This document shows positions 12,408-50,359 of a DNA stretch of 64,000 nucleotides, in pieces (positions within the stretch are counted from its first letter, which is position 1; each line of letters begins with the position of its first letter). Origin of the DNA: an uncultured Candidatus Saccharibacteria bacterium. GTDB lineage: Bacteria > Patescibacteriota > Minisyncoccia > UBA6257. The notes under the pieces are model-generated. The model saw only the letters and a program-made list of their open reading frames with translations, made no database searches and had not been told where the DNA came from. Location of the stretch: contig CAYZJA010000001.1 in the NCBI GenBank assembly GCA_964479005.1, positions 80,642 to 144,641 on the forward strand. Direction: 5' to 3'. The translations under genes were made by a program, and so were the position numbers.

Positions 12408-12440
12408 GAGGCGTTTGGTTTAGAACTGAACGTCTTTTTC
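12408..12440 (+). terminator. intrinsic terminator after 11771-12361
   Basis: ggcgtttggtttagaactgaacgtc followed by tttttc. Confidence 0.45.
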
Positions 12441-12493
12441 ATTAACAAGGACTAGCTTTACTAAATTTATGCCTTTGGCATTTGTCCTTATTT

Positions 12494-12521
12494 GGTGTGG
12501 GGGTTGACAAATTATTTTTCT
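12494..12521 (+). promoter_or_regulatory. sigma70-like promoter TTGACA-N16-TATACT (sRNA copy 1)
   Basis: ggggttgacaaattatttttctttgctatact; paralogous to the promoters at 54247 and 57847. Confidence 0.6.
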
Positions 12522-40518: not shown

Positions 40519-40526
40519 TCTATTGA

Positions 40527-40943
40527 CGATTGAACCTATAAGCCGAATTCTGTATCCTGTTAAACAGGACGATAGTCATTTATCTAGCCCTGAAATTACT
40601 CTCAGGGTCAAGCGGCCACTTTCTGACAAATGTCAGAACACGAGCCTTGCACCCAGTAAGGATTTAGCCGTTTCATTCTTGAAATTGCTTTCAAGACTCA
40701 CCCTAATTAAAAAATAATTAGGGTGTTTTGAACTTTTCAGTTCAAAACGTCTCTGTTCGCACCTCTATTCCAGTTGTAAATCCGTCATTAGCGTTACCGC
40801 TAAGAGGCAAAAACTGGAGCGATAGCTGTTAGCTATTACCTTTTACCAACTTTGTTTTAGGCAAAATTGGTGGTGTTCGGACTTTCCTCCCCGCCTAAGT
40901 TTTGCGAACAAAATTTTGGCGGGGTAACTACCCAGTTCAATCG
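40527..40943 (-). ncRNA. rnpB: RNase P RNA (bacterial type A-like)
   Basis: Minus strand reads CGAUUGAAC (P1)...UUACCCCGCC-loop-GGCGGGG (P3)...AGGAAAGUCCGAACACC (P4 5' strand)...AGGGUGA...ACAGAAUUCGGCUUAUAGG (P4 3' strand)...GUUCAAUCG (P1). Confidence 0.85.
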
Positions 40944-46090: not shown

Positions 46091-46483
46091 ATGAAAAAAT
46101 TATTATTGATTATAATTAGTTTAGCTCTTATTCTTCTCTTTTCATCAAGGATTAGGGAGGATTTGCAGACATATCGATTATTAACTGATGAAGTAAAAAG
46201 CCTAGAGCAAACAAAAGGCAATATTGAAAAAGAGAGGGAAAAGACTGAGCAACTTTTGGAAAAGGAAAAGCAAGAAGAGACACTTGAGCAGGCAGCGCGT
46301 TTAATGTTAGGACTTAAAAAAAGCGGGGAAGAAGTTATAATGATTTTACCTCCTAAAAATTCTTCTGATTCCGAACTTCAAATTAGTACTTCTTCTGATG
46401 TTTTACCTGAAAAATCTTTTAATTCCTTTTTTTCCAAAATTTCTCAAATTTGGTATAATTTAATAAGAAAATTAAAAAAATAG
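46091..46483 (+). CDS. FtsB/DivIC-like septum formation initiator (TM + coiled coil)
   Basis: TM anchor, coiled coil, then EQAARLMLGLKKSGEEVIMI like the FtsB C-terminal motif. Confidence 0.4.
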   Translation: MKKLLLIIISLALILLFSSRIREDLQTYRLLTDEVKSLEQTKGNIEKEREKTEQLLEKEKQEETLEQAARLMLGLKKSGEEVIMILPPKNSSDSELQISTSSDVLPEKSFNSFFSKISQIWYNLIRKLKK

Positions 46484-46488
46484 ACGTT

Positions 46489-46695
46489 GCGGGCATCGTA
46501 TAGTGGCAGTACGTAACCTTCCCAAGCCCCCACACCAAACGAGTATCATTGCGAGATTAGTATAGTGGTAGTACATCACCTTCCCAAGGTGAAGGTGCCG
46601 GTCCGATTCCGGTATCTCGCTCCGTTTAAAATTTAAAATACTCGTTGTGGTGTGGGGGCAAGGTTAAAGTGTGGGTTCGATTCCCATTGTCCGCT
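46489..46695 (+). tRNA. tRNA-Gly(CCC) gene interrupted in the anticodon loop by a 136-nt insert (5' half 46489-46525, 3' half 46662-46695)
   Basis: GCGGGCA-TC-GTAT-AGTGGCA-GTAC-G-TAACC-TTCCCAA // GGTTA-AAGT-GTGGG-TTCGATT-CCCAT-TGTCCGC-T. All stems pair. The junction is ambiguous across a 3-nt AAG direct repeat. Confidence 0.6.
46551..46621 (+). tRNA. second tRNA-Gly(CCC)-like gene nested inside the insert; atypical T-loop TCCGATT
   Basis: GCGAGAT-TA-GTAT-AGTGGTA-GTAC-A-TCACC-TTCCCAA-GGTGA-AGGT-GCCGG-TCCGATT-CCGGT-ATCTCGC-T. Flanked by 20-bp inverted repeats at 46527-46546 and 46638-46658. Confidence 0.6.
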
Positions 46696-46778
46696 CAAAT
46701 TATTTTTTCGTTACTATCCAAAAAGATTGACGAAGTTTCAAGTGCAATATGGTTTTGTATAATCTTTTTACATTGCTC

Positions 46779-46807
46779 TTGACAAATAGTTTTACATCGC
46801 ATATACT
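46779..46807 (+). promoter_or_regulatory. sigma70-like promoter TTGACA-N17-TATACT, with a second TGTATAAT -10 at 46757-46764, for the accessory operon
   Basis: cttgacaaatagttttacatcgcatatact. Confidence 0.55.
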
Positions 46808-46848
46808 GGAGTTAGGTCGTAATAATTAACTATTTCATCACCAAAGCT

Positions 46849-47136
46849 ATGGCTACAAAAAAATTTAGTCCAACAAGAACAATAACGCAAAAAAACCTCG
46901 AAAATGTACCTGGCGACAAGCCAGGTGTCTATCGCATCAAAAACGCGTCAAATGATATTCTTTACATAGGTAAAGCAAAAGGAGGTAGATTAGATGACAG
47001 AATCGCTGAACATAAAGGACAATTCCAAGGTGGAACGAAATTCCAGTATAGATTAACTCACAGCAAAGATGCCGCCGAGCGATTAGAGCGTAAAGAAATT
47101 CGTGAATGGAAACCGCCTAGAAATAAAGATAAATAA
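46849..47136 (+). CDS. small stand-alone GIY-YIG nuclease-domain protein
   Basis: KPGVYRIKNASNDILYIGKAKGGRLDDRIAEH...ERKEIREWKPPRN has GIY/YIG, Arg and Glu positions. Confidence 0.6.
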   Translation: MATKKFSPTRTITQKNLENVPGDKPGVYRIKNASNDILYIGKAKGGRLDDRIAEHKGQFQGGTKFQYRLTHSKDAAERLERKEIREWKPPRNKDK

Positions 47137-47139
47137 TTT

Positions 47140-47625
47140 ATGCCCTCTTCGTTAAAAACATACGCGAGCATAGAAGACATCAATAGAATTTATATGAGGG
47201 CTAATGCGCATAGTCTTACCGAAAGAATTAATAAGGATAGTGGTCTTGAACAAGATGTTTTATACATAGAAGCCTTTTTATTGCAAGCAACGTTATTGGA
47301 AGGCGTTCTTGTTAATCTTGGTCTAAGATTATTAGAAAGCAAAAAAGAATTAACTGGGCTTAAAGGTAAAAGATACGTTAAATATGGTTATGATAATGCG
47401 ATCAATGATTTATATTTAATGAATGCGATAAAAACAAAAGAGTTTAATTTATTAGAGAAATATAAATCAAAAAGAAATAAGTATATTCATAATCTATTGT
47501 CAAAAAATACGGAGTGTATAGAAAATGAGGTTTTGGATATTCATAATCAGTATAAAGATTTTGTTTGGAAAATGATAAAAAAATTGGGGAGATTAGAGAA
47601 AAAAAGATTAAGTAAAAAAAAATAA
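47140..47625 (+). CDS. HEPN-like hypothetical protein (RNxxxH motif)
   Basis: KRNKYIHNLL matches Rx4H in a helical context; no other homology recognised. Confidence 0.3.
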   Translation: MPSSLKTYASIEDINRIYMRANAHSLTERINKDSGLEQDVLYIEAFLLQATLLEGVLVNLGLRLLESKKELTGLKGKRYVKYGYDNAINDLYLMNAIKTKEFNLLEKYKSKRNKYIHNLLSKNTECIENEVLDIHNQYKDFVWKMIKKLGRLEKKRLSKKK

Positions 47626-47629
47626 AACT

Positions 47630-48406
47630 GTGCTTACAAAATTTATTCAAAAATTGCGAAAAAAGAATAATATGACGCAGGAATTTTTGGCGTCCGAGTT
47701 GAATATCTCTCGTCCTACTTATGTTCAAATAGAACAAGGCGAACGGGATTTAACTATCACCGAAGCGGAAAAACTAGCTTCTATTTTTGGAATTTCTTTT
47801 GAAGATTTTAGACATGGAAAAGATTCTTCAATTACCGCAAAAATTGAAAAGAATAAAATCAAACCAAAAATAGGAAAACAAGAGATAAGAATTAACGTCC
47901 CGCAAAAAAATCTTAAAAAATTTAAGGAAGTTTTACTTTATGTTTTGTCAAAAGTCGGCGGTAAATCAAATGTCGGCGAAGCGGTATTATATAAACTGCT
48001 TTATTTTATTGATTTTGATTTTTACGAAAAATTTGAGGAACAATTGATTGGCGCGACATATATTAAAAATCATTATGGGCCAACTCCTGTTGAGTTTAAA
48101 GCTATTATTGGCAATATGATTCAAAACGATGAAGTCGTAAAAGTTGAGGGAAAATATTTTAATTATCCACAAAGAAAATATCTGCCAGTTAGACGGCCAG
48201 ATCTTAATGTTTTATCTGGACGAGAGATAGAACATATTGATGATGTTTTGGCGCGTCTTGCTGATAAAAATGCTAAAGAAATGGAAAATTACTCCCATGA
48301 AGATATTCCGTGGAAAACGGCGGAAAATGGCAAACCACTTTCCTACGAAAGTGTTTTTTATCGTGACGAACGTTATTCTGTAAGAAATTATGAAGACGAA
48401 CTTTAA
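47630..48406 (+). CDS. XRE-family HTH fused to a Panacea (DUF4065) domain; putative antitoxin
   Basis: N-terminal MTQEFLASELNISRPTYVQIEQGERDLTITEAEKLASIFG (HTH_XRE). C-terminal AVLYKLLYFIDFDFYEKFEEQLIGATYIKNHYGPTPVEF matches the Panacea core. Confidence 0.55.
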   Translation: MLTKFIQKLRKKNNMTQEFLASELNISRPTYVQIEQGERDLTITEAEKLASIFGISFEDFRHGKDSSITAKIEKNKIKPKIGKQEIRINVPQKNLKKFKEVLLYVLSKVGGKSNVGEAVLYKLLYFIDFDFYEKFEEQLIGATYIKNHYGPTPVEFKAIIGNMIQNDEVVKVEGKYFNYPQRKYLPVRRPDLNVLSGREIEHIDDVLARLADKNAKEMENYSHEDIPWKTAENGKPLSYESVFYRDERYSVRNYEDEL

Positions 48407-48725
48407 TGAACTATCTGAATTTTCTAAGGAATTTAAGCGGTTTTCAAAAAAATATAAATCGTTATATGATGACTTAGAAGAGTTTAAGCGCATCGTTGAT
48501 GTTGTACCATTAGGAAATAGCAAGCATTTTAATATTATTACACAAAACGAGCAATGCACCGTTATTAAGGCTCGTTTCTTTTGTCGTTATTTAAAACACT
48601 CTTCTTTAAGGATTATCTACGCTTTTTACAGCCAAAATTGTAAAATTGAGTTTATTGAGATATATTTTAAAGGCGAAAAAAATAATGAGGATCGCGAGAG
48701 AATCAAAGATTACTTGAAAGATTAA
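48390..48725 (+). CDS. RelE/ParE-superfamily type II toxin-like protein
   Basis: 111 aa, overlaps the upstream gene by 17 nt. ...RIIYAFYSQNCKIEFIEIYFKGEK resembles the RelE/YafQ C-terminal beta-strands. Confidence 0.45.
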   Translation: MKTNFNELSEFSKEFKRFSKKYKSLYDDLEEFKRIVDVVPLGNSKHFNIITQNEQCTVIKARFFCRYLKHSSLRIIYAFYSQNCKIEFIEIYFKGEKNNEDRERIKDYLKD

Positions 48726-48734
48726 AAATAGATT

Positions 48735-49202
48735 TTGTTATTCTCTCACAGAAAATTTATGGATAAAAGAATAATCAGGGAAAAATTGGATTTAATCAGA
48801 GGAGAAGTTATCTCATCCGCCACAAGAGTTGAGTTCGTTCTCGGCTATCGCTTAAGAAGGTATTTTTTTCCTAAAAGTAATAATAAAGCAACAATTCTTT
48901 TTTGGAATGTTATGAATACTCCTTACCTTACTTTTGATAATAAAATTAGTATTTATGAATCAATACCTTATTTTAAAAAATTGAAAGGTTATCCTACTAT
49001 TAAAAAATCTTTGAGATTTGTTCAGAGGTTGAGAAATACAATGGCTCATTGGGATTTAGATGAAAAGAAAAGCGATCTTAAAAATATTTTTATGTTCACA
49101 TTAGTTGGGAAATATAGAAAAATAACAATTAACGATAACTTGATTGAAAATTATAGAAAACAGATTACTTTTCTTCTAAAAAAATTTGGTTATAGTAGAT
49201 GA
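48735..49202 (+). CDS. short Abi_2 (AbiD/AbiF)-like HEPN protein
   Basis: VQRLRNTMAHWD matches the RNxxAH HEPN motif of Abi_2 family proteins. Confidence 0.4.
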   Translation: MLFSHRKFMDKRIIREKLDLIRGEVISSATRVEFVLGYRLRRYFFPKSNNKATILFWNVMNTPYLTFDNKISIYESIPYFKKLKGYPTIKKSLRFVQRLRNTMAHWDLDEKKSDLKNIFMFTLVGKYRKITINDNLIENYRKQITFLLKKFGYSR

Positions 49203-49276
49203 AGCTTGACGAGGGATTATCTATTTAGATGAAATCTTTTTTGTTTTCTCACTCTTATCTTAAAAAGATAATATAC

Positions 49277-50359
49277 TCAAATTATTCTTCCGCCGCCTAA
49301 GCATTTATCCTTTTGATAAAATACAGCAAATTGACCTGGGCAGGGAGCAAAGACGCCTTTTTTAAAGATAATCTTTAATTTTCTTTTTTCTGGAATTAAA
49401 CAAGCTTGCGATAGTTTTTGTTGATAGCGGGTTTTAACTTGCGCATGAATAGATTTTATCATTCTTTTTCCTGAAATCAAATGATATGGAAAAACAAACA
49501 GCTCTTTTTTATAAAGAGTTTTCTTATTTTTAGTAACAAAAAGTGTGTTTTTATTCTTATCCCAGCCTGCTACAAAATATGGACCCCCAGATAATTTTAT
49601 ACCTTTTCGTTGGCCTAAAGTAAAAAAATGTAGCCCTTGATGTTTAGTCAGTATATTTCCTTTTAAATCTAAAACTGGTCCTTGTTTTTCACCAACCTTT
49701 TCTTTAAGAAAGGGACAAACTGATTGGCCAGCAACAAAGCAGAAATCTTGGCTTTGTTTTTTCTTAATAAAAAATTTGAAACCTTGCTTTTTAGCAATTT
49801 TATATATGTCTTTTTTTATATAATTTGCTAATGGAAAAATAATATGAGCAAGATATTTTTGTGGTAATAAGCATAAATTATATGATTGGTCTTTATTTTT
49901 ATCTCGCGCTTTTAAAAGCTCATATTTTTTGGTTCTATTGTTTAATCTGAGTCGCGCATAGTGGCCAGTGGCGATATATTGAATCTTGTGTTTTCTTGCC
50001 CATTGCAATAACTGTTTAAATTTAAAATTAGGGTTACAAATAACGCAGGGGTTTGGAGTTCTTAGATTTTTCCATTCGGAAATAAAATAATCAACAACTT
50101 CTTTTTGAAAATCTTTTCTGGCATCTATAATATAGTAGGGGACATCTAGTTTTTTGCAAATGTTCTTGGCGATTTTCAAAGACTCCTTAGTGCAAAAAGG
50201 GTTTTCTTTAAAAGGATTTAATTTGTTTTGCCAGATAGGTAGTTTTAAAGAAACGCCAATTGGGTTCCACCCTTGCTTTTTTAATAATATTAAAGCCATG
50301 GAAGAATCTATTCCACCTGACATTCCAACAACAATTTTTTTACCCTTACCTAATTCCAT
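49277..50359 (-). CDS. mnmA: tRNA-specific 2-thiouridylase
   Basis: KKIVVGMSGGIDSSMA PP-loop; catalytic Cys region. Confidence 0.9.
   Translation of the reverse strand: MELGKGKKIVVGMSGGIDSSMALILLKKQGWNPIGVSLKLPIWQNKLNPFKENPFCTKESLKIAKNICKKLDVPYYIIDARKDFQKEVVDYFISEWKNLRTPNPCVICNPNFKFKQLLQWARKHKIQYIATGHYARLRLNNRTKKYELLKARDKNKDQSYNLCLLPQKYLAHIIFPLANYIKKDIYKIAKKQGFKFFIKKKQSQDFCFVAGQSVCPFLKEKVGEKQGPVLDLKGNILTKHQGLHFFTLGQRKGIKLSGGPYFVAGWDKNKNTLFVTKNKKTLYKKELFVFPYHLISGKRMIKSIHAQVKTRYQQKLSQACLIPEKRKLKIIFKKGVFAPCPGQFAVFYQKDKCLGGGRII

What the first reader, a model, noticed from the sequence alone, without database searches (positions are those of the whole stretch)
46489..47136. tRNA-Gly split by a palindrome-flanked 136-nt insert that carries a second tRNA-Gly, next to a GIY-YIG gene
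Seen directly in the sequence:
- 46489-46525 is a textbook 5' half of a tRNA: acceptor GCGGGCA, D-arm, anticodon stem TAACC, loop TTCCCAA (anticodon CCC).
- 46662-46695 is its exact 3' complement: GGTTA, canonical T-arm GTGGG-TTCGATT-CCCAT, and acceptor TGTCCGC pairing with the 5' strand.
- The 136 nt between them are a 20-bp inverted repeat (cccccacaccaaacgagtat / atactcgttgtggtgtggggg) bracketing a second complete tRNA-Gly(CCC)-like gene. That inner gene has an unusual TCCGATT T-loop.
- The insertion point is flanked by a 3-nt direct repeat (AAG), reminiscent of a target-site duplication.

Why it is odd:
- 136 nt is far too short for a group I intron.
- Bacteria lack the archaeal BHB splicing endonuclease.
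- RNase P/Z processing of the inner tRNA would cut the outer precursor in two.

Possible explanations: (i) a novel tRNA-targeting insertion element that brings its own replacement tRNA; (ii) a previously undescribed small tRNA intron; (iii) a split-tRNA-like arrangement. A small GIY-YIG nuclease gene (a family typical of homing endonucleases) starts about 150 bp downstream.
Basis: seen in the sequence. Interest (0 to 1): 0.85.

Follow-up and report, generated by a model that had tools for sequence, protein, structure and literature searches.

The report
tRNA gene nested inside tRNA gene
A glycine tRNA gene in this candidate-phyla-radiation bacterium has been cut in two by a 136-base hairpin-flanked cassette carrying a complete replacement glycine tRNA; the same arrangement recurs, sometimes three layers deep, in many related uncultivated bacteria, and I found no published description of it.

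Summary
Window 46489-46695 is a tRNA-Gly(CCC) gene interrupted after A38 by 136 nt: a 21/22-nt stem enclosing a second complete tRNA-Gly(CCC). Seven independent assemblies carry the identical 208-nt locus. The closest relatives have an uninterrupted tRNA identical to the joined outer halves (an empty site).

It is one member of a family. One metagenome scan returned 26 nested Gly-in-Gly loci in Patescibacteria, all with the junctions ...CCCAA|GCC...GGC|AAGG.... Stem sequences differ between families but stay complementary.

The inner tRNA is intact in 26 of 26 evaluable loci. The outer gene is intact in only 11 of 25; it is chimeric or decayed in 8 and has lost its 3' half in 6. Some loci keep relics of a third layer. 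tRNA-Thr(CGT) shows similar nesting.

Best reading: a non-autonomous, site-specific DNA cassette that destroys the resident gene and supplies its replacement. Because it carries its own target, it can be invaded again. It is probably not a spliced intron. The mobilising enzyme is unknown.

The GIY-YIG gene belongs to an unrelated toxin-antitoxin/defence island. I found no description of such cassettes in the searched literature.

The parts
46431..46459 (+). Promoter-like site (TTTCCA-17 nt-TATAAT with TG extension), about 30 nt upstream of the outer tRNA. It is the only plausible promoter for the whole nested transcript.
   Evidence: The GGTATAAT motif is conserved upstream of the uninterrupted tRNA in relatives. 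No promoter-like site lies between the outer 5' half and the inner tRNA on the + strand.
46489..46525 (+). Outer (resident) tRNA-Gly(CCC), 5' half, nt 1-38, ending with the whole anticodon loop TTCCCAA.
   Evidence: Identical to nt 1-38 of the uninterrupted tRNA in L005/L024.
46523..46526 (+). Left copy of the 4-nt direct repeat CAAG. The right copy is 46659-46662. A37-A38 is the part outside the helix.
   Evidence: The same ...CCCAA|GCC...GGC|AAGG... junctions occur in the other nested loci.
46526..46546 (+). Left arm of the cassette (GCCCCCACACCAAACGAGTAT).
   Evidence: The 20 nt after G46526 are identical in L026. The core GCCCCCACACC is shared by L043, L046, L050, L051, L027/L059.
46547..46550 (+). 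4-nt spacer (CATT) between the left arm and the inner tRNA.
46551..46621 (+). Inner (cargo) tRNA-Gly(CCC), complete, with discriminator U. No CCA is encoded. The T-loop is TCCGATT (C55).
   Evidence: ARAGORN; Rfam, 64.6 bits; all stems fully paired. L026 carries the same tRNA with a canonical TTCGATT loop.
46622..46637 (+). 16-nt A/T-rich trailer between the inner tRNA and the right arm.
46638..46659 (+). Right arm (ATACTCGTTGTGGTGTGGGGGC). It pairs with the left arm; G46647 is bulged.
46660..46661 (+). Duplicated AA (a second copy of A37-A38). In the RNA fold it pairs with U32-U33 and extends the outer anticodon stem to 7 bp.
   Evidence: Universal in the family.
46662..46695 (+). Outer tRNA-Gly(CCC), 3' half, nt 39-73.
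   Evidence: Identical to the 3' part of the uninterrupted tRNA in L005/L024.

Best explanation
Window 46526-46661 is a small, non-autonomous DNA cassette: two complementary G+C-rich arms enclosing a complete tRNA-Gly(CCC). It has inserted into the anticodon loop of the resident tRNA-Gly(CCC) gene.

How it works:
1. The insertion lies between A38 and G39, or at an equivalent register within the CAAG repeat. It splits the resident gene and so inactivates it.
2. The cargo tRNA is in the same orientation and has no promoter of its own. It is transcribed from the resident promoter.
3. The cargo tRNA is released by the ordinary tRNA end-processing enzymes: RNase P at the 5' end and a 3' endo/exonuclease. 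RNase III may cut the ~21-bp stem first. The cargo then takes over decoding.
4. The outer halves and the arms become dispensable. They decay, recombine or are deleted.
5. The cassette carries an intact copy of its own target (CCTTCCCAA|GG). The new gene can therefore be invaded again, which produces Russian-doll loci and a trail of orphan tRNA halves.

Shown:
- insertion relative to an empty site;
- patchy distribution among close relatives;
- a conserved junction;
- an intact inner gene against a decaying outer gene;
- multilayer relics.

Inferred:
- the expression route;
- that movement is catalysed in trans by a site-specific enzyme recognising the GCC...GGC hairpin or terminal inverted repeat. 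Candidates are a DDE transposase making a 2-bp duplication, a bridge-RNA (IS110-type) or serine recombinase with an AA core, or an HUH enzyme acting on single-stranded hairpins. No such enzyme was identified.
For: 1. Empty site. L005/L024 have an uninterrupted tRNA identical (72/72) to the joined outer halves. L023, L001-3, L090-99 and L103-115 are also uninterrupted.

2. Patchy distribution. On a LepA+DivIC tree (2198 columns), {window, L005, L024} has 100% bootstrap support. The other occupied relative, L026, lies outside that clade. This needs at least two gains or several precise losses. Each lineage's outer half matches its own clade's native tRNA: GCGGGCA in the window, GCGGACA in L026 and L103.

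3. A family. 26 nested Gly-in-Gly loci came from more than 15 metagenomes. The junction CCCAA|GCC...GGC|AAGG is shared.

4. Helix base. Cells are 98.5% paired; 3 of 6 pairs show changes on both sides; 0 of 500 shuffles reach the observed score; slid controls pair at 18-53%.

5. Fate of the two genes. The inner tRNA has all acceptor, anticodon and T stems paired in 26 of 26 loci. The outer is intact in 11, mismatched or decayed in 8, and has lost its 3' half in 6.

6. L026. Same cassette as the window, but the right arm and the outer 3' half are deleted and the inner tRNA joins the normal downstream flank.

7. L035 versus L053 (same insertion). The inner tRNAs are identical over the 72 shared nt, while the arms differ at 4 of 30 positions and the stem is lost.

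8. Third-layer relics in L055, L040, L033 and L041.

9. Role swap. The window's inner type is the outer gene in L050/L100-102, and the window's outer type is their cargo.

10. tRNA-Thr(CGT) cassettes nested in tRNA-Thr(CGT) in L028, L043 and L027.

11. The only promoter-like site on the + strand upstream of the inner tRNA is the resident one.
Against: - No transposase, recombinase or nuclease with these ends was found, either in the window or next to other nested loci.
- No autonomous element with the same arms was found.
- The window has only one copy plus one doubtful relic.
- Arm family does not predict cargo similarity: within-family 74.8% against between-family 75.0%, p = 0.51. Arms and cargo therefore reassort, which a simple 'arms + cargo move together' model does not explain without extra recombination steps.
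- The scan pattern required CCTTCCCAA upstream and the same orientation. The constancy of the 5' site and of the orientation is therefore partly built in.
- The Thr cassettes sit at other positions and show no clear target duplication.
- Complementary arms are expected equally for an RNA helix, a DNA hairpin or terminal inverted repeats.
- No expression data exist.
Confidence: 0.65

Rival explanations
1. The insert is a genuine intron. The pre-tRNA folds so that the GCC/GGC helix and the CCCAA bulge mark the splice sites. An unknown bacterial endonuclease plus an RNA ligase (for example RtcB- or LigT-like) removes the stem and the inner tRNA and joins the outer halves. One transcript would then yield two tRNA-Gly(CCC). 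Mobility could be by reverse splicing.
For: - The junction geometry is conserved in all complete members: 7-bp extended anticodon stem, 5-nt bulge holding the anticodon, and a helix starting G-C, C-G, C-G.
- 11 outer genes are perfectly intact, including the window's.
- The window's inner tRNA has an unusual C55.
- Patescibacteria are unusually rich in tRNA introns (PMC13011429).
Against: - The outer gene is chimeric, decayed or truncated in 14 of 25 loci, while the inner is always intact.
- L026 deleted the right arm and the 3' exon.
- Arms decay while the inner is conserved (L035/L053).
- There is one bulge only, so no bulge-helix-bulge motif.
- No intron or ribozyme family matches.
- No EndA or RtcB gene was seen in the window.
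- C55 also occurs in inner tRNAs whose outer gene is dead (L035/L053), so C55 does not mark a pseudogene.
Confidence: 0.12
2. There is no dedicated mobility. The nested arrangement arose rarely, by illegitimate recombination of foreign tRNA-bearing DNA. It spreads between related populations only by DNA uptake and homologous recombination through the conserved tRNA halves and flanking genes. The arms are a passenger or an RNA-folding insulator.
For: - Synteny around the locus (LepA-DivIC-tRNA-Gly) is conserved, which gives long homology.
- The neighbouring island is 89-91% identical between the window and L050, although DivIC is only 78% identical. This shows recent exchange at this locus.
- Chimeric outer halves and arm/cargo reassortment show that homologous recombination is active here.
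Against: - The same arm families and the same junction are found inside many different outer tRNAs and hosts.
- In the window and L026 the outer halves keep their own clade's sequence to within 33 nt of the junction. Conversion tracts would have to be extremely short.
- The invariant GCC/GGC ends and the AA duplication across unrelated arm families look like a recognition or cleavage signature.
Confidence: 0.15
3. Collaborative homing. The adjacent free-standing GIY-YIG nuclease cuts uninterrupted tRNA-Gly(CCC) genes. The cassette protects the host copy and is co-inherited with the nuclease gene.
For: - A GIY-YIG gene starts 153 nt downstream of the outer tRNA.
- Precedents known from the literature (my own knowledge, not checked here): T4 SegB at the tRNA gene region, and F-CphI with the psbA intron.
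Against: - No GIY-YIG homologue is present in any other nested locus, including L026 and L050.
- The gene lies in a separate island bounded by its own 11-bp repeat.
- Homologues (70-92% identity) always head a GIY-YIG / HTH-Panacea antitoxin operon in unrelated contexts, not beside tRNAs.
- The protein is 95 aa, a bare catalytic domain with no DNA-binding domain.
- The inner tRNA still carries the putative target.
Confidence: 0.03
4. Assembly or chimera artefact.
For: One Logan contig (L016) breaks inside the inner tRNA, as expected at a repeated 11-mer.
Against: Seven independent assemblies are identical over the 208 nt, and 26 other loci have the same architecture.
Confidence: 0.01

Closest known systems
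Miniature inverted-repeat transposable elements (MITEs), i.e. non-autonomous DNA transposons
   Same: Small size (134-136 nt). No ORF. Complementary terminal arms. A short direct repeat at the insertion site (AA/CAAG). Presence/absence polymorphism between close relatives.
   Different: - It carries a functional gene, a tRNA.
- It is found at one specific position of the cognate tRNA gene.
- It is single-copy in the 64-kb window.
- No autonomous partner with the same ends is known.
- Unrelated arm families share only GCC...GGC.
Integrase-driven genomic islands and prophages that integrate into tRNA genes (anticodon-loop or T-loop sublocations) and rebuild the gene from an element-borne copy of its 3' part
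   Same: The target is a tRNA gene, often the symmetric anticodon stem-loop. The element compensates for the damage it causes by bringing tRNA sequence.
   Different: - Those elements are kilobases long and encode a tyrosine integrase.
- They restore the same gene by a direct repeat of its 3' part.
- Here a whole, different tRNA is nested, the resident gene is left split, and no integrase is present.
Group I introns in tRNA anticodon loops of Patescibacteria and other bacteria (PMC13011429)
   Same: The same phylum and the same kind of target (anticodon loop). Patchy distribution. They escape standard tRNA annotation.
   Different: - Group I introns are at least ~200 nt, self-splice, and match Rfam RF00028.
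- This insert is 136 nt, half of it a tRNA, and matches no intron model.
- Its host exons decay.
Archaeal disrupted tRNA genes: bulge-helix-bulge introns, Nanoarchaeum split tRNAs, the Caldivirga tri-split tRNA-Gly, and the Caldiarchaeum tRNA-Thr 5' fragment + recombinase element + complete tRNA-Thr (PMC3293823)
   Same: - tRNA halves followed or preceded by complementary G+C-rich sequences that pair.
- Orphan 5' fragments lie next to a complete replacement tRNA. L026 here, and Thr in L051, resemble the Caldiarchaeum case.
   Different: - Those are archaeal systems that depend on the EndA splicing endonuclease and a bulge-helix-bulge motif, and the halves are functional.
- Here the organism is bacterial, the motif is a single bulge, and the halves are relics.
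Hairpin-forming non-autonomous elements moved by single-strand (HUH/Y1) transposases (IS200/IS605 PATEs, REPINs/RAYTs), and IS110-type bridge-RNA recombinases
   Same: - The whole element can fold into one long hairpin.
- On the bottom strand the element lies 3' of CTTG and itself ends in CTTG.
- A 2-nt 'core' repeat (AA) flanks it, as after IS110-type recombination.
- IS110-family transposases occur in related genomes.
   Different: No tnpA, RAYT or IS110 gene is linked to any nested locus. The end architecture (one hairpin formed by both ends) differs from the separate left and right hairpins of IS200/IS605. Nothing was tested.

Membership tests
tRNA (Rfam RF00005) - inner gene | Cloverleaf with paired acceptor, D, anticodon and T stems and conserved loops, scoring above the family threshold | tested here: met
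   64.6 bits against a 29-bit gathering score. ARAGORN calls Gly(ccc). Stems pair 7/7, 5/5 and 5/5. One deviation: C55.
tRNA - outer gene after in-silico joining | The joined halves form a canonical cloverleaf | tested here: met
   ARAGORN calls Gly(ccc), 72 nt. The sequence is identical to the uninterrupted tRNA of L005/L024. Not scored with Infernal, because only stored sequences can be searched.
Group I intron | Conserved P3-P9 catalytic core (Rfam RF00028), usually at least 200 nt | tested here: not met
   No match at the gathering threshold or at E <= 5 on 46440-46760. The insert is 136 nt, of which 71 nt is a tRNA.
Archaeal/eukaryal-type tRNA intron | Bulge-helix-bulge motif: two 3-nt bulges separated by 4 bp at the splice sites | tested here: not met
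   The minimum-energy and centroid folds show one 5-nt bulge (CCCAA) on the 5' strand and no bulge on the 3' strand. The alternative pairing of UUCC with GGGG would break the long helix.
Archaeal/eukaryal-type tRNA intron | A splicing endonuclease (EndA) and an RNA ligase encoded by the organism | not testable with these tools
   Only 64 kb of a ~0.55-Mb genome is available. None was seen among the window ORFs scanned.
Any spliced intron | Exons remain under selection as a functional gene | tested here: not met
   The outer gene is intact in 11 of 25 evaluable loci, against 26 of 26 for the inner. The 3' exon is deleted in L026.
MITE / non-autonomous TIR transposon | Terminal inverted repeats | tested here: met
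   21/22-nt complementary arms. Family-wide, 98.5% of cells pair at the base of the helix.
MITE / non-autonomous TIR transposon | Target-site duplication of fixed length | tested here: inconclusive
   AA (or CAAG, counting the closing G-C pair) flanks every complete Gly member. The Thr cassette in L028 shows none.
MITE / non-autonomous TIR transposon | Multiple dispersed copies, and an autonomous element with the same ends | tested here: not met
   Within the sequence available, there is one copy plus one doubtful relic in the 64-kb window. Arms occur only at nested tRNA sites in the loci held. No transposase is adjacent. Whole genomes could not be searched.
Integrase-mediated tRNA-targeting island | A tyrosine or serine integrase gene, and a direct repeat of the tRNA 3' segment at the far end | tested here: not met
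   The insert has no ORF. It is flanked by the two halves of one gene, not by a repeated 3' segment.
Homing-endonuclease-associated element | A nuclease gene inside, or consistently beside, the mobile insert | tested here: not met
   GIY-YIG is absent from all other nested loci. Its homologues sit in toxin-antitoxin/defence operons elsewhere.

The most novel reading that the evidence does not exclude
The stem-flanked tRNA is a new kind of bacterial tRNA intron. In young insertions such as the window's, an unknown protein endonuclease recognises the GCC/GGC helix next to the CCCAA bulge, and a ligase rejoins the outer halves. One transcript would then give two tRNA-Gly(CCC). Reverse splicing into the anticodon loop of cognate tRNAs would explain both the fixed 38/39 site and the cognate-in-cognate rule. 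That would be a protein-dependent tRNA splicing pathway in Bacteria.
Probability: 0.1. Interest if true: 0.97.

Novelty: categorically new. Interest (0 to 1): 0.88.

Why it matters
If the main reading holds, this is a mobile element with a previously unrecorded strategy. It destroys a translation gene and pays for the damage with a working copy of the same gene. Because that copy is also its own target, invasions can nest.

Consequences:
- It would explain why orthologous tRNA-Gly(CCC) genes in closely related Patescibacteria are only about 78% identical: the genes are replaced by foreign copies rather than diverging slowly.
- It would explain why orphan tRNA halves accumulate at these loci.
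- It would explain why annotation tools report only the inner gene.
- It would give a bacterial, DNA-level model for how split and fragmented tRNA genes arise, a long-debated question in archaeal tRNA evolution.
- It would point to an undiscovered enzyme that recognises a tRNA anticodon stem-loop in DNA together with a G+C-rich hairpin.

Practically, tRNA surveys of reduced genomes should look for nested and relic genes.

Tried and rejected
- **Viral contigs.** The nested-anticodon pattern and both arm-junction patterns returned only chance hits in coding repeats or high-GC phage genes.
- **Other copies in the window.** The only other hit is a 13-nt match to the arm core at 12492-12504 (-) with its own short hairpin. 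Similarity of the upstream sequence to a tRNA-Gly 5' half is not significant (p 0.07-0.09), and Rfam finds no tRNA there.
- **General hairpin-element family in the window.** None was found.
- **Ribozymes or introns in the insert.** None was found.
- **Recombinase, transposase, EndA or RtcB** near nested loci or in the window. None was found. Neighbours are LepA, DivIC, MnmA, PrfB, FtsE, FtsX.
- **HNH-like ORF next to nested loci L051/L041.** It belongs to a separate event in the adjacent tRNA-Thr gene, and Pfam gave no hit.
- **Molecular-clock test of independent insertion** in the window and L026. Underpowered: arm + spacer 25/26 identical against flanks 89-90%. Tree topology was used instead.
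- **Arms and cargo as one co-evolving unit.** Rejected: arm family does not predict cargo similarity.
- **Literature.** Nine searches found nothing on tRNA nested in tRNA in bacteria.
Full report
**Setting**

The window is 32% G+C bacterial chromosome. It carries MurJ, LepA, a DivIC-like gene, MnmA, a DUF4012 protein and a class-A RNase P RNA at 40523-40943. Close relatives in the genome collection are Patescibacteria (CPR) MAGs labelled Paceibacterota or Saccharibacteria. The finding lies between the DivIC-like gene (46091-46483) and a GIY-YIG gene (46849-47136).

**1.

- 46489-46525 is nt 1-38 of a tRNA-Gly(CCC). 46662-46695 is nt 39-73.
- Joined in silico, they give a 72-nt sequence that ARAGORN calls tRNA-Gly(ccc) with every stem paired.
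- Between them lie 136 nt:
  - left arm 46526-46546;
  - spacer CATT;
  - a complete tRNA-Gly(CCC) at 46551-46621 (ARAGORN; Rfam 64.6 bits);
  - a 16-nt trailer;
  - right arm 46638-46659, with one bulged G;
  - a second copy of A37-A38 (46660-46661).
- Counting the closing G-C pair, the direct repeat is CAAG (46523-46526 and 46659-46662).
- As RNA the region folds into outer cloverleaf + 7-bp extended anticodon stem + 5-nt CCCAA bulge + ~21-bp helix + inner cloverleaf. dG is -86 kcal/mol, z = -6.0.
- ARAGORN with intron detection reports only the inner gene.
- The 208-nt locus is identical in seven independent assemblies from three JGI samples and four sequencing runs. It is not a chimera.

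**2. It is an insertion, and an empty site exists**

- L005, L024 and L025 carry, at the same place after DivIC, an uninterrupted tRNA-Gly(CCC) that is 72/72 identical to the joined outer halves. L023 differs at two positions.
- Alignment of the window with L005, L002 and L003 shows two extra pieces in the window. One is the 136-nt insert. The other is a separate 2.57-kb island (46705-49275) bounded by the 11-bp repeat CTCAAATTATT.
- On a LepA+DivIC tree (2198 columns, 300 bootstraps), {window, L005, L024} is supported at 100% and window+L024 at 92%.
- The only other occupied relative in this clade, L026, lies outside that group. The occupied state therefore needs at least two gains or several precise losses.
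- The outer half in each lineage matches its own clade's native tRNA: GCGGGCA in the window, GCGGACA in L026 and L103.

**3. It is one member of a widespread family**

A single metagenome scan looked for two Gly-CCC anticodon loops 36-63 nt apart, followed by a T-loop. It returned 33 loci, of which 26 are true nested tRNA-Gly(CCC)-in-tRNA-Gly(CCC) genes from more than 15 metagenomes. Most lie in the same synteny: LepA-DivIC-tRNA-Gly-(MnmA)-tRNA-Thr-PrfB-FtsE-FtsX.

Features the scan did not demand are nonetheless shared:
- the insert begins GCC immediately after CCCAA;
- it ends GGC immediately before AAGG;
- the two ends pair.

Arm sequences fall into unrelated families:
- GCCCCCACACC... (as in the window);
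- GCCGGGNAGTGAAARTGCGA...;
- GCCCCG...;
- GCCCTCCC....

All remain complementary. At the six basal pairs, 98.5% of cells pair and three pairs show changes on both sides. 0 of 500 shuffles reach the observed score, and slid controls pair at 18-53%. Complementarity by itself does not distinguish an RNA helix, a DNA hairpin or transposon-type terminal inverted repeats.

**4. The inner gene is the working one; the outer is a relic**

| Gene | Result |
|---|---|
| Inner tRNA | acceptor 7/7, anticodon 5/5 and T stem 5/5 paired in all 26 evaluable loci |
| Outer, fully intact | 11 loci: window, L028, L037, L039, L047, L048, L049, L050, L054, L055, L058 |
| Outer, halves mismatched or decayed | 8 loci: L031, L033, L035, L041, L043, L051, L053, L059 |
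| Outer, 3' half lost | 6 loci: L026, L027, L029, L034, L040, L042 |

- L026 carries the window's cassette: the 20 nt of the left arm after G46526 are identical, and the inner tRNA differs at two positions. It has lost the right arm and the outer 3' half, so the inner tRNA now abuts the normal downstream flank.
- L035 and L053 share one insertion. Their inner tRNAs are identical over the 72 shared nt, but the arms differ at 4 of 30 positions and no longer pair well.
- The arms and outer halves are therefore dispensable after insertion. This argues against splicing of the outer gene.
- The only promoter-like site on the + strand upstream of the inner tRNA is the resident one (46431-46459, TG-extended -10), and it is conserved in relatives. 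The cargo is always co-oriented with the outer gene, although the scan required that.

**5. Serial invasion**

- L055 has an intact middle gene containing an intact inner gene. It is itself flanked by a decayed outermost 5' half with a degenerate left arm upstream, and by a right-arm remnant plus a third 3' half downstream.
- L040, L033 and L041 show similar extra fragments.
- The window's inner tRNA type is the outer gene in L050/L100-102, whose cargo is the window's outer type. Relatives of L050 at 93-97% DivIC identity have a third, uninterrupted type.
- 'Native' tRNA-Gly(CCC) genes of lineages only ~15% apart in LepA differ by ~22%. This fits repeated replacement.
- Arm family does not predict cargo similarity: within-family 74.8% against between-family 75.0%, permutation p = 0.51. 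For example, L033 and L059 have 93%-identical cargo in unalignable arms.
- I explain this, and the chimeric outer genes, by recombination between the homologous halves of nested layers. That is an inference.

**6. Not only glycine**

In the loci held, tRNA-Thr(CGT) genes are also interrupted by arm-flanked tRNA-Thr(CGT) genes:
- L028, at 35/36; the outer halves join to the intact tRNA seen in L029/L047;
- L043, where the cassette replaces the anticodon arm;
- L027, in the D-loop.

In L051 a Thr 5' fragment ending at C34 is followed by an HNH-like ORF and a complete tRNA-Thr. L041 carries a homologous ORF between its tRNA-Gly and tRNA-Thr genes. In every case the cargo is cognate with the target.

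**7. The GIY-YIG gene is unrelated**

- No other nested locus has a homologue. L050 shares the island's HTH-Panacea gene (91%) and the next ORF (89%) but not GIY-YIG. L026 has no island.
- The 95-aa protein is 70-92% identical across many Patescibacteria.
- In 20 sampled contexts it is always the first gene of an operon: GIY-YIG, an optional ~104-161-aa ORF (absent in some), an HTH + SocA/Panacea antitoxin, and a small ORF. The operon often lies beside IS110-family transposases or defence genes, not beside tRNAs.
- It is best read as part of a mobile toxin-antitoxin/defence module that landed at the tRNA's 3' end.

**8. Mechanism**

Shown: a DNA insertion at a fixed site of the cognate gene, gained or lost among close relatives, followed by decay of the host gene while the cargo is kept.

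Inferred:
- transcription from the resident promoter;
- release of the cargo by RNase P and 3' processing, possibly after RNase III cleavage of the stem;
- movement by a trans-acting enzyme that recognises the invariant GCC/GGC ends and the target CCTTCCCAA|GG.

The AA (CAAG) repeat fits three kinds of enzyme:
- a DDE transposase making a 2-bp target duplication;
- a recombinase with a 2-nt crossover core (serine or IS110-type; IS110 genes exist in related genomes);
- a single-strand HUH enzyme, since on the bottom strand the element lies 3' of CTTG and ends in CTTG.

None could be tested. No candidate gene lies in the window or beside other nested loci. No other copy of the arms was found, apart from a doubtful relic at 12492-12504.

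**9. Comparison with known systems and novelty**

- It resembles a MITE in anatomy.
- It resembles integrase-driven tRNA-targeting islands in 'repairing' its target.
- It resembles bacterial group I tRNA introns in location.
- It resembles archaeal split or fragmented tRNA genes in appearance. The Caldiarchaeum case (PMC3293823) is the closest in outcome.
- It fails the defining tests of group I introns, bulge-helix-bulge introns, integrase islands and nuclease-linked homing. It meets only part of the MITE definition.
- The most recent systematic survey of tRNA introns in Patescibacteria starts from group I covariance hits and does not mention glycine or nested genes (PMC13011429).
- Nine full-text searches found no description of a tRNA nested in a tRNA in bacteria. 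The library does not cover all journals, so prior description cannot be excluded.

**Caveats**

- The scan pattern fixes the 5' junction and the orientation.
- Only 64 kb of the genome is available.
- There are no expression data.
- Whether tRNA-Gly(CCC) is essential in these organisms is unknown. The intact inner gene in 26 of 26 loci argues that one copy is under selection.

Noticed in passing
window 46705-49275 (repeat copies at 46694-46704 and 49276-49286): A 2.57-kb island, absent from L005/L002/L003 and bounded by the 11-bp direct repeat CTCAAATTATT. The repeat includes the last bases of the tRNA. Contents: a strong promoter-like site (46779-46807), GIY-YIG (46849-47136), ORF161, HTH + SocA/Panacea antitoxin (47630-48406), ORF111 and ORF155. 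The GIY-YIG / Panacea operon recurs in many Patescibacteria, often beside IS110 transposases and defence genes.
   Followed up: yes
window 12440-12504 (- strand): ACCCCCACACCAAATAAGGAC...GTCCTTGTT. It is a 13-nt identical match to the cassette arm core, followed by its own short hairpin, in an intergenic region. It has no tRNA and no right outer arm. It may be a relic or a cargo-less relative of the cassette. Similarity of the upstream sequence to a tRNA-Gly half is not significant.
   Followed up: partly
L028 2400-2620; L043 2430-2580; L027 3560-3930 (- strand): tRNA-Thr(CGT) genes are also interrupted by arm-flanked complete tRNA-Thr(CGT) genes: at 35/36 (L028), replacing the whole anticodon arm (L043), and in the D-loop (L027). 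L028 has both its Gly and its Thr genes nested, plus a cargo-less hairpin (CTCCGATATTTT...AAAATATCGAGAG) beside the Thr cassette.
   Followed up: partly
L051 1263-1870; L041 (homologous ORF between its tRNA-Gly and tRNA-Thr genes): In L051 a 34-nt 5' fragment of tRNA-Thr ending at C34 is followed by a promoter-like site, a 159-aa ORF with an HNH-like motif (DHIDG..NN...CPNCD; no Pfam hit) and then a complete, different tRNA-Thr(CGT). L041 carries a homologous ORF at the corresponding position; its Thr 5' fragment was not examined. No group I intron model matches. It looks like nuclease-associated tRNA replacement.
   Followed up: partly
window 46605 (inner tRNA position 55); inner tRNAs of L035/L053 and L054; outer 3' half of L047: T-loops reading TCCGAT (C55 instead of the near-universal U55) recur in several unrelated tRNA-Gly(CCC) sequences. 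These include inner genes whose outer gene is dead. The same cargo in L026 has the canonical TTCGATT. Unexplained.
   Followed up: no
L027 (- strand), immediately 3' of the inner tRNA-Gly: A second, different palindromic insertion (CCACCAGAATGGCAAT...ATTGCCATTCAGGTGGTGG, ~150 nt) lies at the 3' end of the inner tRNA and duplicates CCCGCTC. It is absent from the sister locus L059.
   Followed up: no
L053, L035 and L041: outer 3' halves: The relic outer 3' halves contain a further ~40-100-nt insert inside the T-arm region (for example GCGGG[CTTGTCATATAGTGAGTCACCGAAGGTGGCTCTACTACTGGG]ATTCGATTCTCGT in L053).
   Followed up: no
L110-L115, ~185 nt downstream of DivIC: A 216-aa 2H-phosphoesterase / '2'-5' RNA ligase' (LigT-like, PF13563) gene is inserted between the uninterrupted tRNA-Gly(CCC) and MnmA. 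This is the same hot spot as the window's island.
   Followed up: no
window 40523-40943 (- strand): A class-A RNase P RNA (110 bits) lies a few kilobases upstream of the nested tRNA. A mechanical ORF call (40523-40717, +) overlaps it and is unlikely to be a gene.
   Followed up: no
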